Shown here piece by piece: positions 37,122-64,000 of a stretch of 64,000 nucleotides of DNA; position 1 is the stretch's first letter; each line of letters starts with the position of its first letter. The translations under genes and the position numbers were made by a program. Source of the DNA: Takakia lepidozioides (lineage: Eukaryota; Plantae; Bryophyta); the NCBI GenBank assembly GCA_030704615.1, contig CM060731.1:74276001-74340000 (forward strand). Reading direction: 5' to 3'. Under the pieces are notes generated by a model. The model ran no database searches, had not been told where the DNA came from, and saw only the letters and a program-made list of their open reading frames with translations.

Positions 37122-37123
37122 CT

Positions 37124-37135
37124 TGGTATCAGAGC
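37124..37135 (+). promoter_or_regulatory. Primer binding site (initiator tRNA-Met)
   Basis: tggtatcagagc, 2 nt after the 5' LTR. Confidence 0.92.
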
Positions 37136-38357: not shown

Positions 38358-38400
38358 GTTATATTAGGAAACTGGCGCCTTACGAAAAGAGAGTCAGTTA

Positions 38401-41400: not shown

Positions 41401-41648
41401 CACGTCCGAATCGGCATCAAGTGTTGCGTCCGCCACCTATGCTGTTGGATCATGAAAATGAACCTGAGTACGAGGTGGAGGCAATACTTAAGTCGAGGAG
41501 GTTCAAGAACCGAGAAACGGAGTATCTCGTCAAATGGAAGGGCTATCATCATGTGGAGGCATCTTGGGTGCGTGCCTCAGAAATGGGAAACGCATCCGAG
41601 GCGGTTGCAGCTTTCGAAGGGCGACCTCAAAAGCGGAAGAAGCGTTGA
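38401..41648 (+). pseudogene. pol: Retrotransposon Pol (PR-RT-RH-INT-chromodomain), frameshifted
   Basis: ORFs 38401-38670, 38649-39380, 39254-40453 and 40545-41648 carry [56 protein letters not shown] and the chromodomain. Confidence 0.93.
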
Positions 41649-42555
41649 TGGGGACATCAACCTTGGAGCGTGGGGGAGGAAATGCATGCTTAGCCCGGCT
41701 TAGCTAGCTTAGGGAATCCGATTGCAAAAACTTGTATTATACAAAAAATTGTTATAAAGGAAATGGGTTCCAAATGTTGTGCGTCCTATTTTGTTTGGAA
41801 TGGTGATGCATGGTATGGTTGGCTAGTGTGTAGAATGCATGCTAGCTTATAAAAGTGGGAGAGGTAAATTGGGTTAATCGTGTGTTTGCGTAGTGCCGAA
41901 ATCGGGTGACCCCCATCCAAGGGGCAAGGAAACTTGCGCCTTCTTTGGGAGTTCACGTGCTAGTGCGCACCTGGCGCGTGCGCGTACTATAACTGCGCTA
42001 CCGAGGGGGTTGCCTTGTAGTGCGGGCTAACGCGGAAGCTACGTGCTTCCGTTCACGTACTATAATCGTGTAGCCTCGGGACGAAGTCGTAGTGCGGCTT
42101 CGGCGTGTTCCCGTACCTCAGGCCAGCATTCCAAGGCGGACCCAATTGTAGTGATTGGGGCGCACGGTTGGTTCAAGGTTATCTTCCTAGTCAAAGAGGG
42201 TTCCAGGTGAACCCTTGCTCAAGGTGATGCCAACAGCGGCATCATGAGCGATCGCAAGCAATGTTGTTGCAGTAAGGCGATTTGATCCTCGGGAGGATCG
42301 TTCCTTGGCCTTGAAGTAGGCCAAGAAGAGTGCACTGGGAGGAGCTTAGAGGGGCTCCACCCTTGGCCGGGACTTGGAGGAAGTCGGCCGAACTAGCTAG
42401 TGGAGAGTAGAGTCAGGTGTGGGGTTTGGTTCTTTGCCATGGGACGCCATGGTACGGAAACAAACTCCTTGATGTGGGACGCCACAACTTGGATGTTCGT
42501 TTCTACAAAATGGACAAGTCGATGAGGACATCGACTCCCTGTTGGTAGGGGTGTG

Positions 42556-43281
42556 TGTCGCGGCCCTTTGCCTTGAGGGTAGGGGGTCGGGACACATGAG
42601 GGGCTGCCCCTGTGGTGGGGGCAGCGGCAGCGATAGGTATGGGGGGCTGAAGCACCCTTGAGTGCCCAAGGCACTCAGGGAAGCGGAGGCGCTCACTAGG
42701 TGGAGCCCCGCACACCGGGTTGCGGTGGGGGTGGCTCCACAAAGGGTGGTGGTAGCTTAGCGGGACTTAGTGGGGGTGGCATAGGACTCACCATGGGAGC
42801 AAAGACCTCGTGGTGGGAGTCGTGGGGAGTCTTGGGACTCATCGCGGTCCATAGGGACCGTGGTGAGCGGGCCAAGACTCACCGCGACTCATCACCGGGA
42901 GTCGAGGGTTTTCGTGGTGGTTCGCCATAAAATGGCATGGCTGGTTGTGAAACCCCCGCGGACACCTACAGAAGTATATATAGGGAGTAGTAACCCCGAG
43001 AACGGTGCAAGCCCGTTGGTGACCAAAAACTAGTGAGTAAGCGAGCGAGCCGGAAAGCGACCAAAGAGTGGGGAGCTGTTCCGGACTGCCATCTACCAAA
43101 GGGAATTCTCCTAGTCCCAAATAGGTGGAGGGTTTAGAGGGAAGCCAAGGGGGACCGTTATGTCCCGGTGAGCAGCCGAAGCTCCAAGTTGGCCCGGGCG
43201 GCCAGGTTGGGAGTCAGGCGAGCGCATCAAAGCGAGTAACTATGACTTGAAGGGGAGCTTACCGAAGTGAGGTGCGCGACA
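42556..43281 (+). repeat. 3' LTR
   Basis: Direct repeat of 36396-37121, preceded by a short purine-rich tract ggtagggg. Confidence 0.95.
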
Positions 43282-44375
43282 CTGGACCTCACATGCGGCA
43301 CGGGTAAGACTTCACGTGCTCAGTTTGTCCCCTGGCCCGATTGCAATTGCATGCCGCAAGCTATTAACCGCCCGCTTTGGTCCTCAGGTGCTTCAATGTG
43401 GGCAGGGACGTTGTCCGACAGGCATGTGTTCGCCTTCGAGCCAGATACTGCCCTCCACAACTCGGAACTTGCAGCGGCTGAACGTCTGCCGAAAGAGGAA
43501 GAGGCATCCTCGGAGGATGAGGAAAAATCCGAGAAGGAGCAGGGGGAGGAAGTTGGGATCGAGGCCGAGGAGCCCCCGGTTTACGAGTGAGTGGTGGCAT
43601 TGTAAGTTGCCTCTAGATTTCGTGAGGCACCTCCCTCCGCTCTCTTATTTCATTGAAAACCCTTTCTGGTTGTGCTGGTATTGACATTCTTGAAGTGGAT
43701 TTGTTCTTACTGTAGGATGCCAAGTACTGCCGGAGGGACGTCTACACCGGAGTTCATGGGCAGGAGGAACGTGCCTTTTTTTGCCAGGGGGGATTTCATG
43801 CCTAGTCCAGAAAGGGAGTACATCCTTCCTACTTATGCTGCCCGGCTTGCTTCGGTGTCCATTAGGAGGTGTTCCGAACGTAGTCGTGTACAGCAGATTT
43901 TAGACGAGGCAAGCCTCAAGAAAATGAAGATGAGGGAGGAGGCAGCAGCTATTAGAGCCCGTCGGGCTCGTAGATTTGTGTTGGATTCTGCTGAGGAAAG
44001 TGGGGGAGAAGACGTAGAAGATTCCTAGGAGGTGAGGTGGACATTTTTTAGAGGCATAGTGGAACTGATGCATCACAGAGCTCCGAGGACGAGGGGGATG
44101 AGGGGGATGAGGAAGAAGGTGGGGCAAGTTCATCGGAGGGTGTAGGAGAGTAGTGCCCATTCCGGCTATGACAGTTAGAACACACTTGTATAGACGTGGC
44201 TTGCCACAAAATTTGCAATAAAATGTTGCATTTCAAGTCCACTGGTGCCACATTCCAACTTCACATGACCCTATTTCCATGCCTCCTAACCCTATTTCCG
44301 TGGACTAAAAATGGTCTGCTCATGCTTTTTTTTTTCCGCTCATGCTCATGCCGCTCATGAAATAGCAGCCCCTCA

Positions 44376-44924
44376 TTGGCAGTATCATGTCAAGTCACTC
44401 CAAACTATCAAAGGTTCACTCAACCACCTAGCATGCAGAATTCAACATGGAAACTTAGGGTCAATTATGATAAGAAGGAAAAACAGGGTGAAATGTGTTG
44501 AAGAAGGTGCCTTCATTAGTAGTGCCTGATTTATCAATTCCACCACTACTGCTGCAGCTTCCAATTGACCATCTATCCATGCAGGTTGCTAGTAGCTATT
44601 GATCCACAGGGAATCATAGGAGCTTGAAGTCCAGCCCTCTTCGATGAATCTGGATCCACACTCTATCCCTACTCCTTCAGCTATCCATGCCTGATTTGCA
44701 CAAATCATGCATTCATCCTTGCCTTGCTGCTAGCAGATGACAATGAAAGCCTCGAATTGTTTTGGGAAACACCCAACTCAACTTATCACACCAGTTCCTA
44801 TGCTCAATTGCATCTTCTACTCTCTGTAATCCAATAGGCATTCACCTTTTTGCCTTGATTGTCCAACCGTTGACTGGGGTCAGAAAAGTATTCACTCCAC
44901 AGCTTCTTGTGGTCTCCGTTACCT
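44376..44924 (-). repeat. PPR-associated repeat copy
   Basis: Collinear with 33930-34560 and the reverse complement of 60520-60885. Confidence 0.75.
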
Positions 44925-46748
44925 GTGTTTAGCCATTTCTCCAAGGGGTTTAGCCACGCCAAGCTAGGGTTTGTGTCTCTTGGACTCTAGGCTTCTTTCC
45001 ACCGAGCTATGGCGGCTGTGAGGAAATCAGCAAGGTATTCTTGCTCTTTCGGCTCCCACACACCACCATAGTAGCCCTAAGCCATGAGGTGGTTGCCACA
45101 AACCAAGCCTTCTTTCTCACTTAGCTTCCCCAAACACGCCACTAAACTCAATGGCAAACAACCAAGCCCTGCTGGTTCCTAGCCCTTGTGAGCACTCATT
45201 CAAGCACTCTCCTTGGCCATAGCATCTATCTTAGAGCCTATTCCAGCCCCCTACACCTACTGCTTCAAGAGTTGCGCTCCCTTCAAGCTTGAAGTTGAAA
45301 CCCCAACCTCACATAGGCCCTACAAGTGCTTTTCTTTCACTCCAAGTGGAAACTAGCCCTAGACCTTCCGTTCTAGCTCTCTAAAGCTTGAAAACAAGAG
45401 CCTCAATGGGCTGAAGGCATGCTCCACACATGCCCCACTCTCACCATAAGAGAATCAGCTCCTTTGCTTCATTTCTTGCACCCACAAACCTGAAAATACA
45501 AGCTTCAGCAGGCTGAAAGCATGCTCCACATGACCTACAGGGAAACCAGCCCCTTCCTTCCTTTCTTGCACTCCCACACCTGAAAGTGCAAGCCTTCACC
45601 AGGCTGATAGCATGCTCCACACATGCATTGCCCTCACATAAGGGAAGTCAGCCCTTCCCTCTTCCTTGCTTGCCCTCCAAGCTTGAAGATGGAAGCTTCA
45701 ATGAGCTAAATACATGCTCCACACATGCAACCTCTTCACACAAGAGATATCAGCCCCCTATCTTGGCTCCTTGGCTCCTTGATGCTCTCTAAGACAAGAC
45801 TAAGCACTCCACAGCCTTTGCCAAGCTCCTGAAACCCTAAGGCTTACATTTCCAACCACAAGACACTTCTCTTGTGGTGCAAGAGCTCTTCTTCCAAGCT
45901 CTGAAACCCTAGGTGCACATTCCATGGCCTTGCCGCACCTCTTAGCTCCTGTTCCAGCCCTGCTCTTGCCATGACAAGAGCCCTCTCAATGCTGAAGCTC
46001 GAGATTGAAACCCAATCTCACCATACTCCACAAAGTGCACTGATTTGCCCCAAGCCAAATCAGCCCTTTCGTTTGGTCTTGCAATCCTTCACACAATGAA
46101 AGCTCGCATTCCCAAGTCCAGTTCTCAGCTTTGCCACCAAAGCCACTATAACCTGCTCTTGACTGGTCCTCTTCCCAATCGTGCTTGCTCATGCATGTAC
46201 ACAATCTGAAACCATCAAGGTGCTCTGGAATTACCTGCAGCATGGTGCTTTCATCTCTGAAGCTGAAGATCGAATGCCAAGGTCTACCACCTCGTAACCC
46301 ACATTGCCTCCGCTTCTAACAACCAAGAGCTCCACGGTGCTCCTTGCATAACAACTTGGTTTCTCTCATTCTCAAGCAAAAACCACAAGTGCTACAACTA
46401 ACTCGTATCTGGCACTCACAGATATGAGCTCATCTTTCTCGAGTGATAAAGAAGAAGAATACAAGCACAAGCTCATGCGAGCTCACAAAGCTGAAGCATA
46501 AACTCATGCATATATAACCTCATCACTCAAATACAAGTCAAGCCAAGTGCACCCCACGCCATGGGGAATCCACACTACGGCGCCATAGCTAGGCGCGGTG
46601 AGGCTCAACTCGAGAAAGATGAGCCTCCCGCGCTTGCCGTGAAGATAACCACTCCATGGCCTAAATCTGCCTTGACCCCTGGATTGACACTTGGGCCAAT
46701 CCCAAATGTCAATATGTAAAAGCTAGCTATTTCCTAGCTAGTTTCACA
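44925..46748. mobile_element. Unclassified insertion, possibly LTR or LTR-adjacent sequence, with degenerate tandem repeats
   Basis: Abrupt start inside the PPR-associated repeat. catgctccaca recurs four times at 45418-45725. No coding signal and no TSD found. Confidence 0.35.
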
Positions 46749-46770
46749 CTAGTGGTAAAATAACTTGACA

Positions 46771-48965
46771 TCTAGCCTGCCACCAAGTACACTTCTTGGG
46801 CATGGTAAGCCATATTGCCGCTTCACATTTGGCCAAATGTAAGCACCCCAAAGCATGCATCTTGCAAGGCCTTCTGGGTATGTAAGAACAGCCTGTCATT
46901 GTATATATTCAGGACCTGTGCACATAGGACTCTTGCTGGCCCAGCCTGCAGTAAATCAGACTTCAAACATGCAACCAAGTGATCACTTTGGGCATGACAA
47001 GACTGACTGCGACTTCATTCTACATCATGTACACTTGCCCCAAGATATACATCATGTAAGGCGTTTTGGCATGGAAGAAAGGCCTGCCCTGTCACAGCAT
47101 CCAGATCTGGACATACATACACTTTGAGTGCCCAAGACCAAGCCCACTTGGCCAAGATAAATCATACAATGCAGGTGGCTGTTCATATGGCAAAATAGAG
47201 TAAATAATCATTGGCCAGAGTCCTTTAGAGCTTACCGTCAGTGTTTCACAGGAGGCTAATGCCATGTTTTGCAAATAGAACCTCATTATGCTCCATTCCA
47301 CAACAAAACCAGGTCTGAAAAGAGGCCTGTCACTGCCTTATCAGGCTGTCTTCTTTAACAAAACTCAGGTCTCCTCATCCTTAGAGCCAAACAACTATTT
47401 ATGACTTGTCCCTTACACCATCAATCCTCTTTTAAGGCCAAAAAAAGGGGGCAACCTAGTCTAAAAATCCTCAGGCAAAGCTGTCAAAGATTCAAGACAA
47501 GGTTCGATTCACATGCAGTGCTGCATGAGACAAGGCTGCCAGGGCAAAGTGCTCCATCAGCAGCAGCAAAAGATAAGTCAAAAGCAAACATCATCATGTC
47601 AAACCGGGAGCAAGCGGGCCGAAATCGGGGCTGCATGCAGCAGCAGTATGTTCCTTTTGCGCACATCCTTATCTGCAAGCTCAAGAGAATTCAAAGTAGG
47701 TAGGGATCCTCACCTGGTCCCATCACAAGCCCCCACAAAAACCAATGGGTTAGTGAGGATTGTGGAACCCCAGGTGAATCACAGACCCCTACACTTGTTA
47801 TCGATGTCAACTAGGAACCCGAAAAGCAAGAGAGAAAGATATGAAGTAAGAGGAACCCTAATCGCCAAAAGCACGTTGAGCGATTGGGGAAGGTAACACT
47901 GCGCCATCGCCACCAACACGCCACCTCTAGCACAGCTAAGGAGAAGCGAAGAATACAATTGCTAGGTCTAAGAAGGGAGAGGGAGCGATATACTTCCCCA
48001 CCAAAGCGCCACTGCGAAACATAAAAGCCGGAGGAGGGAAAGGGACGATGCCATCACAACGGGTTCTCCCGCCTGTGTGTAGAGACAAGATGCCGCCATT
48101 GCGCATCCCCAGGAGCTCGTCCGGCATGAAGCAGCAGACAGGGTAGCAGCAGAGCTCAGACGCCATAACTCGCGAGCCCAGCAGCACGAAGAATGCAGCT
48201 GACAGCGGGAGAGACACCCTAGGGCAGAGCCCGATTTTTCATCCGAAGGATGAATAATCAATATCCTTTCTCTTAAAAACCCGACGGATGTCATCCGTTA
48301 GCTAGGTTTAACCAGTAGATTATAGGGTAGGAGTTAGGGTTTCACTCCTTAATTAACAATAATTAAGTGTAATTAAAAAATCTCCATGGCCATCATAAGC
48401 TGTTTTTTTCATCCGGTCCAAATGAAAAAATAAATAGGTTCATTTGTTTGGATGAGGTCCATCAGCAAGATGAAAAATTAGTATCCATCATCCAGGGCAG
48501 TGGTTTTTCATCCTAACAGGTAATTCATCATCCCTTAAGAGAAAGCCTCATCCAGTACGGAAAAAAAGCATAAAGGGGGAATAAAACGAATTCAAATCCT
48601 GGTATTTTTCATCCGGCATGGATGGAAAAATTATAGATAGGATGCCAATGTCATAACCCTTATGGAGGTAATTCCTCATTCTCTGGTGACTCATCTGATA
48701 TAGATGAAAGTCAATAAAAGAGGAATGAAAAATTATAGGTCCTTTTTAAAGGTACTTTAGTGTCCACCCAAGTGATTCTTCCGGTATGGATAGAAAACCT
48801 TTACAAGTCGGGTGAAAACACCTTTTTGAGTCCATCTGGTATAGATGGAAGATCATGAAAAGAACACTGATGCAACCGGCCAGTTCCGAGGAGGGAGACA
48901 GAGGGAGACAGAGGGAGAGAGGGGGCAACAAAGAAAAAACAAAAAGGTGGGGGGGGGGGGGGGGA
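46771..48965 (+). repeat. Copy 1 of a ~2.2 kb near-identical direct repeat
   Basis: Collinear with 51847-54024 (offset about 5076). The distal part is rich in catcc/ggatg motifs. Confidence 0.95.
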
Positions 48966-49011: not shown

Positions 49012-51846
49012 CCTCTTTTCTTTTTGTTTCCTGATCTCTCCCTCTCCCTCTATACAAGGAACTTGCTTGTATTTTTTCCAAAACCCTGGAAGGCGTGGAC
49101 TATTTCTGTCTAAACCATATTTTAAATCTCATCCATACTGGATGTAATCATGAAAATGGATGAATTCCATTAAAGAATATTCTCTGATAGCCGGGTTCTT
49201 TGGATGATTTTGGTCATGAGAACTAACCCTAATGAAAGCCAGACCCTATTTTGGATGTCATCCCTACTAGATGACATCATGATGAAATCAGGGAAATTTT
49301 TTACATCTCATTACCTGTTTTTCATCTAATTTGGATGAAATCGCGAAGGTTTGCCCTATCTCTTCCTCCGCCCTAAAACTCTGCACGATACGCGTGCGTT
49401 TTGATTCTGCTGGAGCTGAGCGATGGTGTCAGTGAATTCATTTAAACACGAAGCTTGTGAATTTGATGGCTATGGAGAAGCTTTATGGCAGCCTGCAAGT
49501 GCTCTGGCAAGATTCCAGTACTTTTCGATTCCCCTTGGGGTATGCAATGGCGGCAGAGCTTCAATTCCCTCAATGAGGTTGTCTCTTCCCTTGGCGGACA
49601 ATCTACCCTAAGCAGTGATTGTTTGTCGATATGTTCAATGGTCATTAAGATCCAGCGCCGCTCTCAAACTTTCAGGAAGTCTCTTCACCTGATAAAATGC
49701 TCGTAGAAATCAGCAAACCGTTGCTTGTTTGTGCTGTCAATTGCCGAGTTCTTGGAGCTATGTCGAATCCTCTTCCACAAACCCTTAAGGTTGTGGATAA
49801 TCTTTGCTTTGCTTTTGATCTCTTCTTGCTTTTGAACGCATGTTGTACAGCGATAACAAGCGTGAGGCCTGATATTCACCTGGGGTTCCACATCTTCACT
49901 AACTTCATTGTTTTTTTATTGCATGTGATGGGACCAGGTGAGGGCCCTCACTTAATATGATTCATGAAGCTTGCAATTGATTGAAACCTAGCAAGATGAA
50001 GTGAAGTCGACTCAAGCTGTTTCTTCAGGGAGCTGATTCAAATCTACCCCCTTATCTTGATCTTTCTGGCTATGCTTCCACCTCTTTCTGTTGAGCATCA
50101 ATGCATTAAGATGAGCTTTATTAGAACACTTATGTTCTATTAATGACTCTTACCTTTGATTTCTGCTACATTACATGATGGTGCTGGATTTGCTATTTAC
50201 AGCACAGCCTGAGCTTTTATTTTCGGTTTATGGTACTGGTAAGATGCTGGGCGTGAAGGGTATCGGGCAGCCAAGTAAGAGGACATAGGGAACACCAATC
50301 TCTTGTTTTTAGGCCATGTATGATTACTGATGCAGGCCATTTGATTTCCAGTCCTTCTTTACTTGTTTGTGACCTTGCAAGTACCCTGCTGAAGCAGATA
50401 CAGATTACCCCAAAACCTGAAACGGGCTCTAGGGTAGACTGGCTTTACTGCTATGGCATGTACCAAGCAGCACAGTAACCTGAAAGATCTTTTTGAACTC
50501 AGACAATATGTTTAGAGGGATTTTAAGACATCGGGGATTAAGCTAGTACAAGCCCTGTATATCTCTCTATACCTCCATGAATGCTTGGTGATATGGTAAA
50601 CATTTTGCTAGAATATATACTCCAGATTATGGAACATAATCAATATCTTCTGATTGTATTCCATGTTTACATATCATTTAGTAAGATCTGCAGATATACA
50701 ATGTAACCATGGGTGATGAAATTCAGCAATCTGAAGACTGGCTTCCTTGCTTTGCACAGTGGTAAAGTAGCAATATGTACAATTGTTTGCTACTTAACAC
50801 CTTGTTACCACGATGTATACAATGGGCCCAGACCTAAACCAGGTTCTGGGGCAAAAAAACAAGGTATGAGGTCATACCACTTATGAGTAAATGGTTCACA
50901 ATCTGTATGATGCTTTGATATGGCCATAAGATTACATAATAAGTGGAACTTCATTTTCAGAGTGTTCATGTAATCTTGGGGAGTGATGTTAGCAGGATAA
51001 ACAAGTTTTCCCTGCTATGAACAGTTGCTTTGTTACATCTGAAAGCATACCCAATAGTGTGATACATGATTGGGTCCCTGTTTAGACATGCATTTTAATG
51101 AAGCATATACTGATGCGGATTTTTATATAATCTCACCCCCCCACCCAGAGATTTCATGAACTATGGGATCTGTTGTATGTTAGCAGACTGGTTTATGAAT
51201 GGAGAATGATTGATAGTGCCTCATTATGAGGCTGATTTGTCGTAAAAATTGACAAAGAGCTTGTTTGGTCTTGTCCATGTCTCGACAAGACATTTTATCT
51301 TCCCTCTCTTTCGTGTTGCTCAAAAAAAAAAAAAACCACAGAGGGAAAGAGGGGGTAGAAAAAGTTAATAAGAGAGAGGGAAGATACTCATGTCATGTCA
51401 AGACATGGACAAGACCAACTAGGGTCATTGTCAATTAAAGACATAAACAGCCCCATGACAGGGCACCATCTAACATTTCCAGTCTTGTCATAACACACCA
51501 AGTGACGCCACCCATTCAGTCATGATAAAACAGGGTGGGAGGGCGGGGTATGTTCATAATCAGATTCCTGTCATGTACCCCAAGTGACCCTCTTGCACAA
51601 TATAAGTCAGATTGCAGCCTCAGATTATATCATCCATAGTTATCCATAAGATATGCACCATGCAAGATATCATGGGCATATAAGAACTTCTTGCCACATT
51701 ACAGATCCAAGATATGTATACACAAGTACCTTGAGGTGATCCAAGACAAGCATTATGCAAGGTAGGTAAGAACAGTCTGCCCTACAACACATTCAGTGAG
51801 TGTTCACACCGGTAGCAGGAAGGACCAGCCTGCAATTAATTACACT

Positions 51847-54024
51847 TCTAGCCTGCCACCAAGTACACTTCTTGGGCATGGTAAGCCATATTGCCGCTTC
51901 ACATTTGGCCAAATGTAAGCACCCCAAAGCATGCATCGTGCAAGGCCTTCTGGGTATGTAAGAACAGCCTGTCATTGTATATATTCAGGACCTGTGCACA
52001 TAGGACTCTTGCTGGCCCAGCCTGCAGTAAATCAGACTTCAAACATGCAACCAAGTGATCACTTTGGGCATGACAAGACTGACTGCGACTTCATTCTACA
52101 TCATGTACACTTGCCCCAAGATAAACATCATGTAAGGCGTTTTGGCATGGAAGAAAGGCCTGCCCTGTCACAGCATCCAGATTTGGACATACATACACTT
52201 TGAGTGCCCAAGACCAAGCCCACTTGGCCAAGATAAATCATACAATGCAGGTGGCTGTTCATATGGCAAAATAGAGTAAATAATCATTGACCAGAGTCCT
52301 TTAGAGCTTACCGTCAGTGTTTCACAGGAGGCTAATGCCATGTTTTGCAAATAGAACCTCATTATGCTCCATTCCACAACAAAACCAGGTCTGAAAAGAG
52401 GCCTGTCACTGCCTTATCAGGCTGTCTTCTTTAACAAAACTCAGGTCTCCTCATCCTTAGAGCCAAACAACTATTTATGACTTGTCCCTTACACCATCAA
52501 TCCTCTTTTAAGGCCAAAAAAAAGGGGGCAACCTAGTCTAAAAATCCTCAGGCAAAGCTGTCAAAGATTCAAGACAAGGTTCGATTCACATGCAGTGCTG
52601 CATGAGACAAGGCTGCCAGGGCAAAGTGCTCCATCAGCAGCAGCAAAAGATAAGTCAAAAGCAAACATCATCATGTCAAACCGGGAGCAAGCGGGCCGAA
52701 ATCGGGGCTGCATGCAGCAGCAGTATGTTCCTTTTGCGCACATCCTTATCTGCAAGCTCAAGAGAATTCAAAGTAGGTAGGGATCCTCACCTGGTCCCAT
52801 CACAAGCCCCCACAAAAACCAATGGGTTAGTGAGGATTGTGGAACCCCAGGTGAATCACAGACCCCTACACTTGTTATCGATGTCAACTAGGAACCCGAA
52901 AAGCAAGAGAGAAAGATATGAAGTAAGAGGAACCCTAATCGCCAAAAGCACGTTGAGCGATTGGGGAAGGTAACACTGCGCCATCGCCACCAACACGCCA
53001 CCTCCAGCACAGCTAAGGAGAAGCGAAGAATACAAATGCTAGGTCTAAGAAGGGAGAGGGAGCGATATACTTCCCCACCAAAGCGCCACTGCGAAACATA
53101 AAAGCCGGAGGAGGGAAAGGGACGATGCCATCACAGCAGGTTCTCCCGCCTGTGTGTAGAGACAAGATGCCGCCATTGCGCATCCCCAGGAGCTCGTCCG
53201 GCATGAAGCAGCAGACAGGGTAGCAGCAGAGCTCCGATGCCATAACTCGCGAGCTCAGCAGCACGAGGAATGCAGCTGACAGCGGGAGAGACACCCTAGG
53301 GCAGAGCCCGATTTTTCATCCGGAGGATGAATAATCAATACCCTTTCTCTTAAAAACCCGACGGATGTCATCCGTTAGCTAGGTTTAACCAGTAGATTAT
53401 AGGGTAGGAGTTAGGGTTTCACTCCTTAATTAACAATAATTAAGGGTAATTAAGAAAATCTCCATGGCCATCATAAGCTGTTTTTTTCATCCGGTCCAAA
53501 TGAAAAAATAAATAGGTTCATTTGTTTGGATGAGGTCCATCAGCAAGATGAAAAATTAGTATCCATCATCCAGGGCAGCGGTTTTTCATCCTAACAGGTA
53601 ATTCGTCATCCCTTAAGAGAAAGCCTCATCCAGTACGGAAAAAAAGCATAAAGGGGAATAAAACGAATTCAAATCCTGGTATTTTTCATCCGGCATGGAT
53701 GGAAAAATTATAGATAGGATGCCAATGTCATAACCCTTATGGAGGTAATTCCTCATTCTCTGGTGACTCATCTGATATAGATGAAAGTCAATAAAAGAGG
53801 AATGAAAAATTATAGGTCTTTTTTAAAGGTACTTTAGTGTCCACCCAAGTGATTCTTCCGGTATGGATAGAAAACCTTTACAAGTCGGGTGAAAACACCT
53901 TTTTGAGTCCATCTGTATAGATGGAAGATCATGAGAAGAACACTGATGCAACCGGCCAGTTCCGAGGAGGGATACAGAGGGAGAGAGGGGGCAACAATGA
54001 AAAAAAATGGGTTGGGGGGGGGGA
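51847..54024 (+). repeat. Copy 2 of the ~2.2 kb direct repeat
   Basis: Near-identical to 46771-48965, ending in the G-run of a truncated palindrome. Confidence 0.95.
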
Positions 54025-55380
54025 GGTCAGATGGTGGGGTCAGCTGCAGCATATGTCCAACACCATATATCCTAAGTTAATCGACTCTATATCTTGGAAA
54101 CAGGACCGCCCACCGACCTGTCAAACAGGCTAAGTCCTGGCAGAAGACAGTATAAGATATTCTCAAGGACCTGGACCTGGAACCGCAAGTCTTCACCCTG
54201 CTGGATAAATCTGACTTAGAGGCTGTAGTGTCCAACCATGTCTGTTGCCATGAGATTGTCTGATGAAAATGAAGTTAGGCAAAAAACTTCCCTGAACTTG
54301 TTTCCAGTCAGTGACATGGGGGAGGACATCTTGGATGACCTCAAGGGTCTACCCACTCTCGGCACTAGACTGAAATTTAAACTCAGGGCAGGAAGCCTAC
54401 CTTTGAACATCAAACAGAAGCAGAGAGGAAAGGGAGAGTGCAATTGCCCGTTGTGTGGGCGCGTCGATGGGGAGGCAAATGATTTATTCGTCTGTTGTGT
54501 CTCCGCACATGTGCAATCTGAAGACAATACTCATTTTCTCATACATTGTTCCGGGTTCTCTCACCAAAGAGACGCTCTCTTCAAATCTTTCAAGGGAATT
54601 GTGCATGTACCTCTGTTTACTAACTTTGAAAAAGTCGAGGCTGAACCAAAAGCCCAGCCCCTTCTGAGGCCTAGTTTTTGGGCATCTCACACACAGCAGA
54701 TTGATGCTTGTGTGAAGGGATTTGTAGAGGATATCTGGAAAACCCGGATTAATTCTTTATGTGAAGGTAAGTCTTACTACCAACGTCAGCCCCTGACAGA
54801 GGTAGGATCTGTCCCTTTTGTTTCCCCAAAAGAGGGAGCAACAAAGAAAAACAGAGAATGTGGGGGGGGGGGGGGGGGGGGAGTGACTGAGCAGCAACAG
54901 CTGCTCAGTCACTCCCCCCCCCCACCTTCTTTTCTTTTCTTGTTGCCCTTGATGTCTCCCTCTCACTCCCTCCCTCTCTCTCCCTCTCTCTCCCTCTCTT
55001 CTGTGCTGCTCTCTTTTAAGCTCCCGACGAGATAAATTCAAGGTCAGATGGTGGGTTCAGCTGCAACATATGTCCAACACCAGATATCTTAAGTTAATCG
55101 ACTCTATATCTTGAAAACAGGACCGCCCACCGACCTGTCAAACAGGCTAAGTCCTGGTAGAAGACAGTAGAAGAGATTCTCAAGGACCTGGACCTAGACC
55201 TGGAACCGCAAGTCTTCACCCTGCTGGATAAATCTAACTTAGAGGCTGTAGTGTCCAACCATGTCTGTGGGCAACCTGAAGACATTATTCATTTTCTGAT
55301 ACACTGTCCGGGGTTCTCTCACCAAAGAGACGCTCTCTTCAAATCTATCAAGGGAATTGTGCATGTACCTCTGTTTACCA
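54025..55380 (+). mobile_element. Non-LTR retrotransposon ORF2 C-terminal (zinc-finger) fragments, locally duplicated
   Basis: TRLKFKLRAGSLPLN...CPLC...THFLIHC...IWKTR. Segments about 54025-54245 and 54520-54620 are repeated at about 55043-55378. Confidence 0.75.
54861..54926. repeat. G-run/C-run flanked palindrome, copy 2
   Basis: G20-agtgactgagcag-caacag-ctgctcagtcact-C10. Confidence 0.9.
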
Positions 55381-56990
55381 CACTAGAAGAAAAACGTGGA
55401 ATAACCACTGGCCCTTTAACCACTACTGTCTTTTTCCACTCTATAAACCACTAGTAACCACTTGTCAGTGGTTAATCCCAATGAAATGCCACGGTTGCAT
55501 CACAGACAGTGGTTGGAAGTGGTTTCAACCACTCAGTAGTCCACGTGTAATAATTTGTTTTTATTTATTTATTTATTATTTGCTAATATATTTTAATTAA
55601 TTAGTATAATATTCCACGTGGACGAGTGTAGTGGTACATTGTGAGTGGTTATAGACACCTCAGTGATGGGAAGTGGTTGAAACCACTTCCTACTCCATGT
55701 GTAATAATTCAAATTTTATTTGTGATTTATTATTTGGAAATATATTTTAGTTCATAAATATAATATTCCACGTGGACGGGGACAGTGCACGTTGATCTTG
55801 AGTGGTTAAAGACACCTCATTGATTTGTACCACTTTGATAGTGGTGGAGAGTGGGTGGTGAAAGATACTGCAGTAATTGGAACCACTATGCTAGTGGTTG
55901 CTCATGAGTGGTTGCCTACACAACAGTGATTGGTACCACTTTTTGGGTGATACATGAAAAACTTTAAGTGGTTTGTGCAGTTGTGACAGACTTTGAAAAA
56001 CAGACAAGTGGCCAGACCATTGTGGGATGATGCTATTGAACAAATGGTTCCAACAATAAACTTTATTTTGAATCTGAAACATATTCGTCACCCTCTGAAT
56101 CACTTTGCTCAACTGGAATAGCGGTTGGTTGCACAAATGCCGCTTGAATGGTAGCCAACATAGCTAGGTCTTCTTTATTTAGAGCCGTGGGACCATCTAA
56201 TGACCTAGGTATTGACTGATTTGATAAGGTAGACGTCGATTGGCACGCCACTCATCACCACATGCCTCTTTGTCTGCTGTGAACTGTGCCTTCTCTGTTG
56301 CATACTTTTTGTCACAAAATGGCAACAAGAATGACACATGTTAGCAATGAAGTATTGCATTACTTAGCAAAAAATACCTAGCATGAATGATACTTTGAAA
56401 ACCACTGTTTCAAACCACTGGAGGAGTGAGCAGAATGACTTGTAAATTCTCATGCTCTTCCAACAAGTCACTCACTCAGACATTCCGTTACTACAAGATT
56501 GGTTATAATCAGGATGAACCACTGACATTTGTGACTTTGTGGGTGGTTATATTACATTGGTGACAGTCAGAATTGAAATTGAACTTGATATGAATAAGGT
56601 GCAATGAAAAGAAGTACTCACTGCGCCCAAGGAGCCATGACATTGGTATTGTTCAGCACATATAAATGTGCTGCATCTCTCCCAACTCCAGTCATGTCCC
56701 GCTTTTTGCCGACACCTTCGAAGACCTCGTCCTCAACCCCTTCCTCCGCATTTGCACCCCAAGTCCGCTGTTGAGTTGCATCAAATGATTGCATATACTC
56801 AGTCATGAACCCCATGGCCTCATCCAGAACATACCCTACAGCCGTACTCCCTTCTGGCTTTGTGTAATTCCTAACGTATCCCTTAAGATCTTTCATGTAA
56901 CGCTCCATGGGATACATCCACCGTGAAGACACTGGATGGACAGTTTTGTTCATCTCCATGGAATACATCTATGTGCTCACTTGTAACCAC
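55381..56990 (-). mobile_element. CACTA transposon end with DUF4218-like transposase fragment (56618-56968)
   Basis: CACTAGAAGAAAAA at 55381, many accact/agtggt subterminal repeats, and PVSSRWMYPMERYMKDLKGYVRN..KPEGS.A.GY. Confidence 0.85.
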
Positions 56991-57419
56991 TAAAATATTT
57001 ATTAAAAAAAAAAATCAAAGTGCAAAAGATTTTTAAAAAGCACATCGGTTGGTAAGTGCAGAGTGTGTCGCCCTGGTGGTTCAGGGTTCAAACCCGCTGC
57101 ATTACTCCATGTGTGGAATTGTTTGTGACGACGGTATGTCTAGGCGTTGATCCTCTTGTAGGTCTCATGGCCCATAAATGAAAGGGGGTTAATTTGTCCC
57201 CCTCCTCAAGGGCCTGAGGTTTCATTTAAAATTTATTAAAAAATATTTTAAAAAAATTGCTTATAGGGTTTGTGAAAAGGTTAAAAAACTTAAAAAGTTG
57301 CCCATCACGTATGTACAATATATACATACTTTTGGGGGGAAATTTCAAATGTGTGCAAGTAGCGTACTGGTAAGGGCTCTTCATACGTGTCGCGGGGTCG
57401 CGGGTACAAACTTCTCGCG

Positions 57420-58121
57420 TTGTTTTTTTCCCCCTCATGCACTAAGCCCCACTAAGCCCCATTAAGCCCGATCGTTGTTGTGCACACTAAGTCCTCGTGC
57501 AGGTTGGTCTTAGCAGGTCGCGTTTCAATCTCTGCTCGTTCAGCTGCACCGTGGTGGTTCTCATGGACAATCCGACATTACCTAACTACAGACACAAGCA
57601 GCACACACAAGAGGTCCGTTTGGGTTCATGGTCTGTCAAATCCTCCATGGGTCATGACACAAGGTCGACGACAATGTGGTTAGGGCACCTTCTTCTTCGA
57701 CCTATTTCAGCTTGTTTTGCCCTCTCATCAGCCTCGGCCCTGGATTTGCAGCACGGAGCAAAGCTCGCATGAGTTTTTTACGATCCTTCATGATGGTGGG
57801 ACAATCGCAATCGCAAGGTGTGGCTTTTTCTTAATGTAGGATGTGAAGAAGTTTGTCCATCCTGCAAATGTGGGCTTTTGGCTCCTGTTAGTACCATGAT
57901 TTGGTATTCTTCCTGATGTTTATAAGGTTCTTGGAAGAGTCAGCTTGGTCTTAGCAGGTCGTGTTTCAATCTCTGCTCGCTTAGCTGCACCATGGTGGTT
58001 CTCATGGACCAATGCGATGTTTTTTTTTCCCCTCAAGCACTAAGCCCCACTAAGCCCTATCGCTGTTGCACACTTAAGTCCTCGCTGATGTTTACAAGGT
58101 TCTTGGGAGAGTCAGCTTGGT
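57420..58121 (+). repeat. Scrambled unclassified repeat (same family as 2692-3080) with cactaagccc tandem units
   Basis: Blocks at about 57420-57575 recur at 57940-58120. Confidence 0.7.
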
Positions 58122-58561
58122 CCAGGGTATGCACGGCAGGGACGTGGGATGGACGCTTTGGAGACCTATGAGCAAATGATGGGGGAAGCACATCGTGTTT
58201 ATTTGTGCATTTGTAATGCTTGTGCAAGCCTGGCAGCCCTGGAGAAGGGCAAGAGGTGCATGGGGATATCATCAAAGTTGGAATTGTGCCAAATGTCAAT
58301 CTGAACACTGCCCTGGCAGCTTTGGAAAAGGGGAAAGAGGTCCATGGCATCATCTTCAGAGCTGGAATTGTATCAGATGTCATTATGAACAATACCCTGG
58401 TGAACATGTTTGCAAAATGTGGGTGCATCTAGGATGCAAAGGGAGTGTTTGACACTATGGCTGAACGAGATGTGGTGTCGTGGAGTGCGATGCTTGCAGG
58501 GTATGCACGGAAGGGATGTGGGATGGAGGCTTTGGAGACCTATGAGCAAAGGATGGGGGAA
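58122..58561 (+). pseudogene. PLS PPR tandem unit (left flank of the TIR element)
   Basis: ALEKGKEVH..IIKVGIVPNVNLNTALAALEKGKEVH...NMFAKCGCI*. Near-identical to 63593-63970. Confidence 0.88.
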
Positions 58562-58884
58562 CCTGGGGGGTGCACTCCTCATTAAATGTACCAGCCACGT
58601 GCGTGCACAGGAGGGGGTATTTTAAACCCCCCCATGTACAACATTATACATATAAAGGGGGGTTTAAAACACCTTAAATATAATATTACAGGAGGGGGTA
58701 GTGTAGTGGTAAGAACGACGATTAGGCTGCGATGCACCGCGGGATCAATTCCTTTTGTTTGGTTTTCTTTTTCTTTTCTTTTTTTCTTTCTCCCCGCGAT
58801 CTTTCTCCCCTTCCCTGGCTTTCTCTTTTCCCTCTCCTCCTCTCATCTCCTCTCCCGCGTTCAAGATGAACAAGATGTGGCATC

Positions 58885-61800
58885 GTGCAAGCCTGGCAGT
58901 CCTAGAAAAGGGCAAAGAGGTGCATGGGGATATCGTCAAAGCTGGAATTGTACCAAATGTCATTCTAAACACTGCCCTGGCAACTCTGGAAAAGGGGAAA
59001 GATGTCCATGGCGACATCTTCAAAGCTGGAATTGTACCAGCTGTCATTCTGAACAATACCCTGGTGGACATGTTTGCAAAATGTGGGTGCATCTTGGCGA
59101 ACAGCCGTGCAAGGATCTGTTCGTGGTGTAAGTGAAGAGGGTCGCTCTCAGATGGGAGTGTACACCGGAAATGTATCAGAAAATGTTTAGTCTTCAGGCT
59201 TCCCGCACGTCGGGCATTGACAGGCTACCTCTCATCTCTGCATCTGTTTGTTTGTTCAAAGGTACACTCCCCGACCTGCATTTCAATTTCAGTCTATTGC
59301 CAAGAGTAGAGAGAGCGAAACGTACTCATACGACGTTTGCCATTGCATTGTGGCCATTTACCCAGTCCGTGCCCAGTTTGGGCGGAACAGGGAGAGGTGT
59401 GTGTGAGGGAGAAAGTACTCATGATAGCCTTGTGGCCATAGACCCTGCACCCAGATTGGGCAGAACAAAGAGGAGGAGAGAGAGAGTCATGACACTGGTT
59501 GCTAAAACCTTGCCAGCCCTAGACCCCGCCCCAAAGCAGAAGATGGACATGGCGAGGAGGAAACAACAAGTAGGACTGCGAAACCACTTCAATCCATGCC
59601 CCATCAAAGGGACCTATCTTCATTTACAAAGTCAAAGGGAGTGTTCGACACTATGGCTGAACGAGGTGTGGTGTCGTGGAGTGCGGTGCTTGCAGGGTAT
59701 GCATAGCAGGGACGTGGGATGGAGGCTTTGGAGACCTATGAGCAAATGATGTGCGACGGGGTGAAGCCCGACCACATCACGTTTGTTGCGTTTGCAGTGC
59801 GTGTGCAAGCCTGGCGGCCCTGGAAAAGGGCAAAGAGGTGCATGTCGACATCGTCAGAGCTGGAATTGTACCAAATGTGATCCTGAACACTGCCCTAGTG
59901 GACGTGTATGCCAAATGTGGGTGCATGGAGGATGCAAAGGGAGTGTTCGACAATATTGCCTAATGAGATGTGGTGTCGTGGAATGCAATGATCGCAGGAT
60001 ATGCACAGCATGGTTGTCATAGGGAGGTCCTGCAACTATTGCAAAAGAACGGCTTGAAGCAGTTGTGTTCTCTCTGCATGCAGCCACACTGGCCTTCTGA
60101 ATGAAGGAAGACGCTACTTCGATTCCCTGATTCAAGATCATGGTGTCACTCCGACAGTATAGCACTTTGGCTGCATGGTGGACCTTCTTGGACGTGCGGG
60201 ACAACTGGATGAGGCAGTGGACCTGAACGTGCGGCAACATCTATCCTCAAGTGGAATGAACAGGATGCCGCGACTTAGTTGCTATCAAACATCTACGCTG
60301 TAGCTGGCAGGTGGGTTGATACTGTAAAGGTGAGAAGAATGATGAAGGTCAGAGGGGTTGAAAAGGAGCCAGGTCGCTGCTGCATTGAGGTTTGCAACAG
60401 GGTGCACACCTTCGTTGTAGATGACAAGTTGCATCCCAAAATTAAGGAAATCCATGCTGAGCTGAGAGGATTGTTGGGAAGATGAAGGTGATTTGCCAGG
60501 AGCCGTTTTCCACATTATCTATGATTACCTACAAGAAACCTGCATGGATAGATGGTCAAGTGGAAGCTGCAGCAGCAGCGGCACAATTGATAAAATCAAG
60601 CGTTGCTAATGAAGGCACCTTCTTCAACACATTTCACCCTGTTTTTCCCTCTTATCAGAATCGGCCCTAAATATCCATATTGAATTCTGCAAGTTAACTG
60701 GTTGAGTGAATCTTTGATAGTTTGGAGTGACTTTGACATGATACTCCCAACTGACAACAGGAAAGTACCCTAAAAGAGGTAACAGAGATGAGGAGAAGCT
60801 GTGGAATGAATACTTTTCTGACCCCAGTCAATGGTGGGACAACCGAGGCAAAAAGGTGAATGCAAAAAGGTGAATGCCTGTCAGATTACATGTCATTCTG
60901 AACACTATGGCTGAATGAGATGCGGTGTCATGGATTGTGATGTTTGCAGGGTATGCACAGCAGGGGGTGCGGGATGGAGGCTTTGGAGACCTATGAGCAA
61001 ATGATGGGGGAAGGGGTGAAGCCGCCCACATAACGTTTGTGTGCATTTGCAATGCGTCTGGCAGCCCTGGAAAAGGGCAGGGCAAAGAGATCCCTGGTGA
61101 CATCATCAAATCTGTAATTGTACCAGATGACATCCTAAACATTGCTCTGATGGCCATGTATGCCAAATGTGGGAGCATTGAGGATGCCAAGGGAGTATTC
61201 AACACTATGACTGAATGAGATGTGGTGTCGTGGAACGCGATGCTTGCAGGGTGTGCAGAGCAGGAGCGCGAGATGGGGCTTTGGAGACCTGAAAGCAGAT
61301 GATGGGGGAAGGGGTGAAGCTCAACCACATCATGTTTGTGTGCTTTGCAGTGCGTGTGCAAGCCTGCAGCCATGGAAAAGGGCAAAGAGGTGCATGGTTG
61401 CATCACCAAAGCTGGAATTGTACCGGATGTGATTATGAACAATACCCTTGTGGACATGTATGCCATTGTGGGAGCATTGAGGATGCGGAGGGAGTGTTCA
61501 ACACTATGGCTGAACGAGGTGGTGTCGAGGAACACGATTCATCCAAGAGCTCAATTTTAAACACAAGATTACTTTTGATTCCCTGCGGATCAATAGCTAC
61601 AAGAAAGCTGCGTGGGTAGATGGTCAGCTGGAAACAGCAGCGGCAGCAGTGCATTTGATAGAACAAGGCGATGCTAATGAAGGTACCTTCTTCAACACAT
61701 TTCAGCCTGTTTTTCCCTGTTATCAAAGTTTTTCCCTATTTTTTCCCGAATGAGCATGGATAGAGTGTGGGTCCAGATTCATCCAAGAGGGCTGGACTTC

Positions 61801-62902
61801 AAGCTCCAGATTACCTTGATTCCATGTGGGGGTCAGTAGCTACAAGAAACCTGCATGAGTAGATGGTCAACTAAAGGCAGCAGCTGCAACGGCACAGTTG
61901 ATAAAATCAGGCACCTCAACCATGACCACAACTTCTGAAAGAGGATCAAGAGAGGGAGTCCACAATGTTTTTCTACTCAACACCCTTGTCAACATGTATG
62001 TTATATGCGGGAGCATCATTGATGCTCACCAAGTGTTCAACAGAATGCCTCAACGATCTTTGATCACGTGGAATATAATGTTGGCAGGATGTAATGCGTG
62101 TCCAAGCCTGCGAGCTCTGGAAAAGGGGAAAGAGGTCCATGGTGACATTGTCGAAGCTGGAATTGTACCAGATGTCATTTTGAACACTCCCCTGGTGGAC
62201 ATGTATGCCAAATGTGGGTGCATTAAGGATGCGAAGGGAGTTTCCATGGCTGAACGAGGTGTGGTGTGGTGGAGTGCGGTGCTTGCAGGGTATGCACAGC
62301 AGGGACGTGGTATGGAGGCTTTGGAGACCTATGATCAAATGATGGGGGAAGGGGTGAAGCCCGACCACATCACGTTTGTGTACATTTGCAATGTGTGTGC
62401 AAGCCTGTCAGCTCTGGAAAAGGGCAAAGAGGACCATGGCGACATTGTTGGATTTGCAATTGTATCAAATGTCATTCTGAACAATACCCTCGTGGACATG
62501 TATGAAGGGAGTGTTCAACGGTATGGCTGAACGAGATGTGCTGTCGTGGAGTGCGATGATTGCAGGATATGCACAGCAAGGGCGCGGGATGGAGGCTTTG
62601 GAGACCTATGAGCAAATGATGTGCGAAGGGGTGAAGCCCGCTTTGCATTGCATGATGTTGAGGAAGAGCTTAAAGAATCGTCTCTTTGCCACCACAATGA
62701 GAAGCTGGCCATTGTTTTTTGGCTTATCAACACACCCTCTGGGATGTCTTTGGGGATCATCAGGAATCTTCGGATGTGTGGTGATTGCCACATAGCCACC
62801 AAATTCATCTCAAAGATAGCTAAGCAAGAGATTGTTGTACGGGATGCAAACCACTTTCACCACTTCCAAAATGGTGTTTGTTCTTGTGGGGAGTATTGGT
62901 GA
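58885..62902 (+). pseudogene. Mosaic of decayed PLS PPR, E/E+ (about 60230-60485) and DYW deaminase (62640-62902) sequence
   Basis: Many P/L/S motifs with stops and frameshifts. KEPGRCCIEV..HTFVVDDKLHP; HHNEKLA, RNLRMCGDCH, IVVRDANHFHHF, CSCGEYW-stop. Confidence 0.9.
59092..59632 (-). mobile_element. LINE-derived fragments inserted in PPR sequence
   Basis: Minus strand RLKLKCRSGSVPLN resembles the LINE at about 54360. The PPR motif AKCGCI resumes after about 59632. Confidence 0.55.
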
Positions 62903-63592
62903 AATGAAATGCTTGTCACCTAATTGAATGTATTGAACTCTGTCAGCTGCGAGTCAGGTTGAACTCCAACAGTGGCAGCAAAGGCGCACGAAATCTCTTT
63001 TTGGAGAGGAATTCTCAACAGTAGGTTTTGAACATAATTGGACCTTGCGAAGGTTGAAACTGTAGAACAAATTCAGAAACTGTCCTAGTTGATGAACAGA
63101 GGTGCAGTGACTAGGTCTTCATGGTCTTCAAGAGGGTCACTCTCTGATGAAAATACCCAGGACTGTATATCAGAAATTGGAAACTTTCTGCAGGCCTCTT
63201 GCACATCGGGCATTGACAATGTCCCTTTCCTCTCTGCATCTGATTATTGTTAGATTCCACAACAAGTTTTATCGAGGGCAAACAGATTTTTTTTAATTAA
63301 TTTATTAGATTTTATTCTATTTTTAAATGAATAAACTTGATATAATATAAAAACATACATATACATATTTGAGGGTATTTTTTAATTATTGAAAAGGAAA
63401 ATATACATACAGAAGGCGGTACTTTTTAAAAATTACAAATTTCTATATATGTACAGGACGGGGTTTTATAATCTTCAAAATGTATGTACAGAGGGGGTAT
63501 AAATGATCCAAGGACCCGTATACAGGGGTTTTTTTTTATTAGGCGGCGAACGCACGTGATACGGACATTTTATAAAGAGTGCACCCCCCAGG

Positions 63593-64000
63593 TGGGGGAA
63601 GCACATCATGTTTGTGTGCATTTGCAATTCTTGTGCAAGCCTGGCAGCCCTGGAGAAGGGCAAGAGGTGCATAGGGATATCATCAAAGCTGGAATTGTGC
63701 CAAATGTCAATTTGAACACTACCCTAGCAGCTTTGGAAAAGGGGAAAGAGGTCCATGGCGACATCTTTAGAGTTGGAATTGTACCAGATGTCATTCTGAA
63801 CAATACCCTGGTGAGCATGTTTGCAAAATGTGGGTGCATCTAGGAAGCAAAGGGAGTGTTCGACACTATGGCTGAACGAGATGTGGTGTCGTGGAGTGTG
63901 ATGCTTGCAGGGTATGCACGGCAGGGACGTGGGATGGAGGCTTTGGAGAGCTATGAGCAGATGATGGGGGAAGCACATCATGTTTGTGTGCATTTGCAAA
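63593..64000 (+). pseudogene. PLS PPR tandem unit (right flank), running off the window
   Basis: Near-identical to 58180-58560, including the same TAG stop after KCGCI. Confidence 0.88.

What the first reader, a model, noticed from the sequence alone, without database searches (positions are those of the whole stretch)
58562..63592. Pack-type TIR transposon filled with PPR and DYW RNA-editing modules
Seen in sequence: matched 43-bp imperfect TIRs 5 kb apart, an exact 8-bp TSD tgggggaa (a 6-bp reading with a 1-nt longer TIR is also possible), arms of about 320 bp, and about 4.3 kb of interior made of PLS motifs, an E/E+ segment and a DYW domain. Removing the element restores atgggggaagcacatc, as in the uninterrupted units at about 58179 and 63964. 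Established knowledge: Pack-MULE-like elements capture and shuffle host fragments, and PLS-DYW families are greatly expanded in editing-rich non-seed plants. Inference: transposon capture may be one route for amplifying and recombining editing-factor modules. The CCTGGGGGG end does not fit the typical hAT or CACTA termini.
Basis: partly seen in the sequence, partly recalled or inferred. Interest (0 to 1): 0.75.

Follow-up and report, generated by a model that had tools for sequence, protein, structure and literature searches.

The report
Moss transposon carrying dead editing-gene fragments
A 5-kb stretch with matched transposon ends and a duplicated target site, from a plant that is likely a moss, is packed with broken pieces of RNA-editing genes; it likely jumped as one unit, but it holds no intact editing-factor reading frame, so it likely spreads raw sequence rather than new genes.

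Summary
The ends are real: 16-bp perfect (35 of 43 matching) inverted repeats and an 8-bp duplication, inserted into an already dead 372-374-bp PPR tandem array. Short-read contigs show the left arm as an abundant end joined to foreign flanks, and favour the 8-bp reading. The cargo is only about 60% PPR/E/DYW. It also holds OSB-type PDF-motif pieces, intron remnants and two inverted LINE-like pieces. It is dead: at least 8 premature stops, several frameshifts, and a DYW domain split and out of frame. The parent genes are likely a PDF-PLS(-E-DYW) family, intact in Sphagnum, a lycophyte, a fern and a liverwort, which I did not find in print. Best reading: a non-autonomous Pack-TYPE element of unresolved superfamily that captured debris of such genes at DNA level. 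The same debris lies outside these ends, so a role in expanding working editing factors is unshown. No genome was held; no second full copy or transposase was seen. The scan had not noted this before.

The parts
58554..58561 (+). Left copy of the 8-bp target-site duplication TGGGGGAA
58562..58604 (+). Left TIR (16 bp perfect, 35 of 43 matching)
58605..58866 (+). Left arm: subterminal ACAG(G)AGGGGG-type repeats, an internal hairpin (about 58612-58675) and a CT-rich inner part. The outer 140 bp is very abundant in short-read contigs
58867..59092 (+). PPR debris: S-motif stub joined to a duplicated L motif; sister lineage to the flanking array units (about 90% identical)
59135..59307 (-). Inverted fragment like the LINE-type tail at 54229-55390
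59425..59632 (.). Unassigned repeat; about 100 contigs in X1 reach it from other left neighbours
59633..60490 (+). Broken S-P-L-S-P2-L2-S2, end of E, and E+/PG box (Pfam E_motif 2.6e-10, Eplus 1.3e-7); stops and frameshifts
60516..60863 (+). OSB-type PDF-motif pieces (second half, linker, first half) ending in an intron donor remnant near 60857
60895..61538 (+). Broken PLS triplets with premature stops and frameshifts
61539..61920 (+). Two more PDF second halves; the second follows an intron acceptor remnant near 61779
61964..62639 (+). PLS pieces; longest PPR frame in the element (223 aa stop to stop, 61859-62530), frameshifted before the last S-P
62640..62902 (+). C-terminal half of a DYW domain (Pfam 4-93 of 93, E 4.7e-38; HxE and CxxC kept), out of frame with the P motif before it and 2.15 kb from its PG box
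63117..63251 (-). Second inverted LINE-like fragment, 73% like the first
63280..63549 (+). Right arm, AT-rich, with the same subterminal repeats
63550..63592 (-). Right TIR
63593..63600 (+). Right copy of the target-site duplication
58188..58561 (+). Target array unit left of the insertion (374 bp, dead PPR unit)
63601..63972 (+). Target array unit right of the insertion (372 bp; 348 of 374 columns identical to the left unit; shares its stop codon and deletion)

Best explanation
This is likely a non-autonomous cut-and-paste (Pack-TYPE) transposon: it has matched inverted ends and an 8-bp target duplication, carries broken fragments of PDF-PLS-E-DYW genes plus LINE-like pieces, and likely was moved as one unit into a dead PPR tandem array by a transposase encoded elsewhere. 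Shown: the ends, the duplication, the empty-site match, the dead cargo, and arm ends joined to foreign flanks in read contigs. Inferred: (1) capture was at DNA level, since intron donor and acceptor remnants are kept; (2) the donor was likely a same-strand cluster of about three PDF-PLS-E-DYW genes or pseudogenes that collapsed by internal deletions, taken up by neighbouring insertions moving together or by gap repair; (3) the element is methylated and decaying. It would spread PPR sequence that can act as recombination template or small-RNA source, but this copy cannot encode an editing factor.
For: Ends and duplication are beyond chance. The array units on both sides share a stop and a deletion, so the target was dead before insertion. 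The left arm lays 2,799 contigs in X1 on 396 bases, many from the PPR edges; one 75-base arm contig has depth 1,437 against 47-135 for the other seven listed X3 pieces. Pieces from three samples reach the tip with foreign letters before it. A loose-end consensus before 58867 in X1 (12 contigs) begins with the arm's last 10 bases and continues with about 20 PPR bases that this copy lacks, so the arm-to-PPR junction exists in another form. Cargo junctions are held in contigs: X3 piece 59423-59675 bridges spacer to PPR; X5 (another study) has 59065-59662 and 62840-63251, each with 7 differences. All 243 tblastn hits of PDF/PPR proteins in 57400-64000 are on the + strand. Removing a 196-bp GT-AG intron from the sister copy at 44.6-44.8 kb joins the two PDF halves in frame; the element keeps that donor and acceptor. 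Transitions against the local majority: CG 12 of 87 and CHG 17 of 166, against CHH 24 of 671. The first cargo piece groups with the flanking units, as local capture would give (model in PMC8903248, section 9).
Against: No genome was held, so no second full copy with another target duplication was seen and no transposase partner was found. No listed contig spans the element or bridges either TIR-flank junction with 31 letters on each side (tables cut). How many of the 12 contigs reach the arm is unknown: the median loose length is 13 and the arm begins about 20 letters out. Summed contig depth is no copy number. The tree support for cargo-flank kinship is only 86/80 and 87/85 on 129 columns. 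PPR debris is so abundant that shared junctions could come from a repeat family outside these TIRs. The methylation counts are small and are measured against a majority, not an ancestor.
Confidence: 0.7

Rival explanations
1. A short, abundant TIR element inserted here first; PPR/PDF debris entered it on the spot (ectopic repair or nested insertions), and the 5-kb composite never moved.
For: No second full copy was seen. The outer arm is far deeper than the inner arm and the junctions. The first cargo piece is kin to the flanking array. PPR debris is everywhere in this window.
Against: The arm-to-PPR junction occurs in a longer form in X1. The S-to-L deletion junction at 58867-58914 is held by contigs of two other samples, at depth 23 in X5 against 2.4-15 for the other listed X5 pieces. 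No nested target duplication was found inside (exact inverted 12-mers only).
Confidence: 0.15
2. Two insertions were duplicated along with the tandem array and lost their inner arms, so the interior is trapped flank DNA and the matched duplication is inherited.
For: The flanks are tandem units, and the first cargo piece shares their doubled L motif.
Against: No arm or TIR remnant inside or elsewhere in the window. The cargo piece is about 90% like the flanks while the flanks are 93% like each other, and it falls outside the flank pair in the tree. The interior does not begin or end with the sequence that flanks the insertion.
Confidence: 0.08
3. The element belongs to a family that also moves intact or repairable PLS-DYW genes and so drives the expansion of editing factors.
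For: All module types are present in native order. PMC13386178 finds dispersed duplication dominant and says retroposition signs are limited in the one moss studied.
Against: At least 8 premature stops, several frameshifts and a split, out-of-frame DYW. The PPR modules are roughly ten to twenty times deeper than the right arm in X1, and four other debris loci in the window lie outside these TIRs.
Confidence: 0.05
4. Assembly artefact: repeats were mis-joined.
For: Highly repetitive region; the best run holds only 0.58 of the sampled words.
Against: An exact duplication around matched TIRs at an array junction is unlikely from mis-joining. Internal junctions are held by short-read contigs of two studies.
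Confidence: 0.02

Closest known systems
Pack-TYPE transposons (Pack-MULE, Pack-CACTA, Pack-hAT, Pack-PIF, Pack-Mariner; Gisby and Catoni 2022, PMC8903248; passages and section 9 read)
   Same: TIRs plus target duplication, no transposase, interior of host coding fragments, size within their 0.3-15 kb search range; cargo kinship with the flank fits their neighbouring-insertion model.
   Different: Host is likely a moss (the main text has no mention of Physcomit-, Marchantia, Selaginella or pentatricopeptide; supplements not read). The CC terminus is unassigned. Their cargo tends to be less repeated DNA, whereas here it is among the most repeated. A family of two or more full copies, which they require, is not shown.
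hAT superfamily non-autonomous elements
   Same: 8-bp duplication (PMC8903248); short perfect TIR with subterminal repeats (recalled from Ac/Ds).
   Different: Terminus CCTGG, not the usual (C/T)A start (recalled); an ordinary CAGTG-ended 8-bp element sits at 26668-26954 for contrast. No transposase to test.
Zisupton/Dileera (KDZ) elements
   Same: 8-bp duplications and TIRs (PMC12730594, passages).
   Different: Their termini were not given in the passages seen, and no KDZ transposase is linked to this element.
Retroposed dispersed PPR duplicates of early land plants (PMC13386178; section 6 and passages read)
   Same: Dispersed copies of PLS/E/DYW sequence next to transposons in a PPR-rich non-seed plant.
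   Different: Here the carrier has DNA-transposon ends, keeps intron remnants and is dead; that paper's main text has no occurrence of 'DNA transposon', 'Helitron', 'OSB' or 'PDF'.
OSB proteins with PDF ssDNA-binding motifs (PMC6963530, passages)
   Same: The cargo's PDF pieces match Populus OSB1-like and OSB2-like proteins (E 9e-7 and 2e-5 in a local tblastn); the PDF stretch of a lycophyte PDF-PLS-DYW protein retrieves proteins named OSB1, OSB2 and OSB3.
   Different: In the likely parent genes the motif stands in front of a PLS array with E/E+/DYW, not behind an OB fold (Sphagnum compactum P0266, Diphasiastrum P0022 and P0259).

Membership tests
Pack-TYPE transposon | Paired TIRs in inverted orientation | tested here: met
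Pack-TYPE transposon | Target-site duplication | tested here: met
   8 bp exact; empty site matches sister units
Pack-TYPE transposon | No transposase inside | tested here: met
   ORFs of 80 aa or more listed; the element ORFs scanned give only PPR, E and DYW families above cut-off; not every ORF was scanned
Pack-TYPE transposon | Captured host coding fragments | tested here: met
   PPR, E, E+, DYW and PDF pieces with intron remnants
Pack-TYPE transposon | More than one copy with related cargo at different sites | tested here: inconclusive
   Arm joined to foreign flanks and a second form of the arm-PPR junction; no full second copy, no genome
hAT | 8-bp target duplication | tested here: met
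hAT | (C/T)A-type terminus (recalled) | tested here: not met
   Ends read CCTGG; not filed as hAT
hAT | Partner hAT transposase with the same ends | not testable with these tools
   No genome; pattern scans of metagenome and viral contigs gave one chance hit and none
Pack-MULE | Long TIRs (about 100 bp or more) and 9-11-bp duplication (recalled) | tested here: not met
   Arms are complementary only over 43 bp; duplication 8 bp
CACTA | CACTA/CACTG termini with a short duplication | tested here: not met
Zisupton/KDZ | 8-bp duplication with TIRs; KDZ transposase partner | tested here: inconclusive
   Duplication length fits; partner not testable
Functional PLS-DYW editing factor | One reading frame: PLS array, E, E+, DYW | tested here: not met
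   At least 8 premature stops; DYW half out of frame and 2.15 kb from its PG box
Functional PLS-DYW editing factor | HxE and CxxC zinc ligands | tested here: met
   HNE and CGDC kept

The most novel reading that the evidence does not exclude
An abundant TIR family with unclassified CC ends, and likely CACTA families beside it, has been mass-transporting pieces of an undescribed OSB-PDF-PLS-DYW editing-gene family through a moss genome. DNA-transposon capture would then be the missing route for the dispersed, intron-keeping part of the PPR expansion, and the thousands of dead modules would be a reservoir that recombines into live editing factors with new RNA targets.
Probability: 0.15. Interest if true: 0.75.

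Novelty: new member of a known kind. Interest (0 to 1): 0.42.

Why it matters
How editing-rich non-seed plants came to have thousands of PLS-class PPR genes is open. The 2026 survey credits retroposition but finds its signs limited in the one moss studied (PMC13386178). This element gives a concrete DNA-level carrier and a 16-bp end with which the question can be tested in one genome search. As it stands it is one dead copy, so it shows transport of sequence, not birth of genes. The side result may matter more to specialists: the cargo points to PLS-E-DYW proteins with N-terminal OSB-type ssDNA-binding PDF motifs in mosses, a liverwort, a lycophyte and a fern, which would link RNA editing factors to organelle DNA or nucleoids.

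Tried and rejected
Whole genome: none held. TIR pattern in metagenome contigs: 1 match, in a contig that shares only the 16-mer with the window, taken as chance; viral contigs: 0. No RNA holder listed; X6 is only guessed to be RNA, so nothing is said on expression. Summed depths were not used as copy numbers. A tRNA-like look in the left arm (58695-58752): ARAGORN found 0 genes in the window and Rfam gave only weak matches below gathering score; dropped. The left arm does not fold better than shuffles (z -0.78). A word-based homolog search with a PDF piece found nothing among 39 candidates, and both Atlas searches were blank; Pfam gave no family for the seven PDF pieces scanned. The PDF assignment rests. 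The idea that the transposon created the PDF-PPR pairing was rejected: 27 of 120 long PPR hits score against a PDF profile built from 23 segments of those same hits, so the count is not independent, and fusions also occur in Sphagnum and Riccia, which came from a separate search (11 of the 149 new hits carry PLS or DYW marks). No right end was found for the CACTAG starts at 33184 and 55381. A search for a table of superfamily termini returned 0 papers, so terminus rules are recalled. Not-in-print claims rest on searches (Pack elements and PPR; PDF/OSB with PPR), of an open-access library only; most hits were seen as listings alone.
Full report
Observation. The TIRs at 58562-58604 and 63550-63592 are perfect over 16 bases and match at 35 of 43. 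TGGGGGAA flanks both ends, and removing the element restores the junction seen at 58181 and 63966. In 100 resampled 64-kb sequences, 31 inverted 16-mer pairs arose and none had a flanking repeat of 8 bp or more; the real window has one, this element. No other copy of the 16-mer exists in the window at up to 3 mismatches, and the arms match nothing inside the element or elsewhere in the window.

Host. No genome is held. An exon of a SERAC1-like host gene at 17.4-18.1 kb is closest to Ceratodon and Physcomitrium (54-55%), then Marchantia and Riccia (47-48%). The host is therefore likely a moss far from those two; it was not identified further.

Target. The element sits at the junction of 372-374-bp tandem PPR units. 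The units left and right are identical at 348 of 374 columns and share a premature stop and a deletion, so the array was dead before the insertion.

Mobility. Logan contigs of four runs (three samples) were laid on 57900-64000 and on 58525-58920. The outer left arm is abundant: one 75-base X3 contig has depth 1,437, while the other seven listed X3 pieces have 47-135. Six listed pieces reach the tip with other letters before it: three begin at 58562, two at 58561, one at 58558. This shows a mobile end and favours a CC terminus with an 8-bp duplication. Summed depth falls steeply beyond 58700, so most copies of the end differ further inside. In X1, 12 contigs have loose letters before 58867 whose consensus starts with the arm's last 10 bases and goes on with about 20 PPR bases missing from this copy. 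The arm-to-PPR junction thus exists in a second form, though the number of contigs that reach the arm is unknown. X3 bridges the spacer-to-PPR junction (59423-59675, 3 differences). X5, from another study, holds 59065-59662 and 62840-63251, with 7 differences each. Another X3 contig carries 59094-59373 with 651 different letters to its left, marking a breakpoint at about 59093. Against this: no listed piece spans the element or bridges a TIR-flank junction, the tables are cut, and summed depth is no copy number.

Cargo. Of 4,413 interior bases about 2,670 are PPR/E/DYW, 720 are PDF-motif pieces and 310 are inverted LINE-like pieces (boundaries by hand). The order is: S stub and doubled L; LINE-like piece and an unassigned repeat; S-P-L-S-P2-L2-S2, E end, E+; PDF pieces; PLS triplets; two PDF halves; PLS pieces; DYW half; 3' flank; second LINE-like piece. 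All 243 protein hits in 57400-64000 lie on the + strand. Read in the proper frames there are at least 8 premature stops and several frameshifts. The longest PPR frame is 223 aa stop to stop. The DYW half keeps HxE and CxxC but is out of frame with the P motif before it and lies 2.15 kb from the PG box. Transitions run higher at CG (12 of 87) and CHG (17 of 166) than at CHH (24 of 671), as in methylated repeats; counts are small. The L motifs of the cargo are 72-89% alike, so they are old paralogues. The two in the first piece group with their counterparts in the flanking units, with support 86/80 and 87/85.

Parent genes. A profile from fetched PPR proteins finds the first half at 60793-60867 (E 4e-11) and a second half at 61553-61633 (E 0.004). 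In a sister copy at 44.6-44.8 kb, removing a 196-bp GT-AG intron joins the halves in frame, and the element keeps that donor and acceptor. Capture was therefore likely from DNA, not cDNA. The motif of a lycophyte PDF-PLS-DYW protein retrieves 735 representatives, among them proteins named OSB1, OSB2 and OSB3. It also retrieves PDF-PLS fusions from Sphagnum, Riccia and Diphasiastrum and a PPR-annotated Adiantum protein; Sphagnum compactum P0266 reads PDF-PLS-E-E+-DYW. The pairing is thus ancient and inherited. Four searches and term look-ups in two papers did not show it in print; most subscription papers and all supplements were unseen.

Mechanism. Most likely a transposase encoded elsewhere cut this element at its 16-bp ends and inserted it with an 8-bp stagger. 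The cargo reads as about three same-strand PDF-PLS-E-DYW genes collapsed by deletions. It could have been taken up by two neighbouring insertions moving as one (PMC8903248, section 9) or by template switching in gap repair (established for other DNA transposons; recalled). Kinship of the first cargo piece with the target suggests local origin, but that subtype may simply be common. The superfamily is open: the 8-bp duplication fits hAT and Zisupton/Dileera; the terminus does not fit hAT, CACTA or MULE as I recall them.

Meaning. The same debris lies at 1-3.1 kb, 33.8-34.7 kb, 44.4-44.9 kb and 57.5-58.6 kb, outside these TIRs, twice downstream of a CACTAG start (33184, 55381). PPR bins are roughly ten to twenty times deeper than the right-arm bins in X1. 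This family may therefore be one of several carriers, or may capture PPR debris because the debris is everywhere. PMC13386178 (section 6 and passages) ascribes the PPR expansion to dispersed duplication with retroposition, reports intron loss in 51.98% of such genes in the moss Takakia, and does not mention DNA transposons; a DNA route is therefore worth testing. Searches for Pack elements with PPR cargo gave no direct report (listings only, apart from the papers named). PMC12973397 (passages) added only that algae and mosses have few active autonomous TIR clusters.

Verdict. A real Pack-TYPE-like insertion, new member of a known kind, with dead cargo. Interest 0.42; 0.75 if DNA-transposon transport proves to feed live editing factors (probability about 0.15).

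Noticed in passing
P0022, P0259, P0266, P0367, P0298, P0086; window 60516-60863, 61539-61920, 44376-44932, 33781-34587, 2691-3099, 57500-58013: PLS(-E/DYW) proteins with one to three N-terminal OSB-type PDF motifs in Sphagnum, Riccia, Diphasiastrum and Adiantum; their debris is scattered through this window. Not found in print in four searches.
   Followed up: partly
window 55381-57000 and 33184-33750: Two CACTAGAAGA starts, each followed by PDF/PPR debris; the first has subterminal repeats and a DUF4218 fragment (56621-56968). The target array may itself be cargo of a larger CACTA-type element; no right ends were found.
   Followed up: partly
window 26668-26954: Ordinary 287-bp hAT-like MITE with CAGTG ends (14 bp perfect) and the 8-bp duplication AAAATAAC.
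   Followed up: no
window 36394-43283: Near-complete Ty3/Gypsy element with 730-bp LTRs 98.6% alike, set into what looks like a CACTA accessory gene (unassigned ORF 34841-35773).
   Followed up: no
window 24919-26282 (-): Terpene synthase gene (Pfam Terpene_syn_C_2 on the 3' ORF) in two reading frames; it resembles microbial-type terpene synthases of non-seed plants (recalled).
   Followed up: no
window 46768-48962 and 51844-54026: 2.2-kb direct duplication at 98% identity.
   Followed up: no
window 31352-33157: CACTAC start with GCGACG-rich subterminal repeats and an inverted DUF4216 fragment (below Pfam cut-off).
   Followed up: no
window 1-2974: PLS gene piece on the + strand facing an inverted PDF-PLS-E+ piece that is interrupted by a Gypsy fragment 91% like 38325-38973; the E+ part is tandemly duplicated (1164-1529).
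   Followed up: no
window 59425-59632: Unassigned repeat inside the cargo; about 100 contigs in X1 join it to other left neighbours.
   Followed up: no
window 14667-21900 (-): Multi-exon SERAC1-like host gene, used only to place the host.
   Followed up: partly
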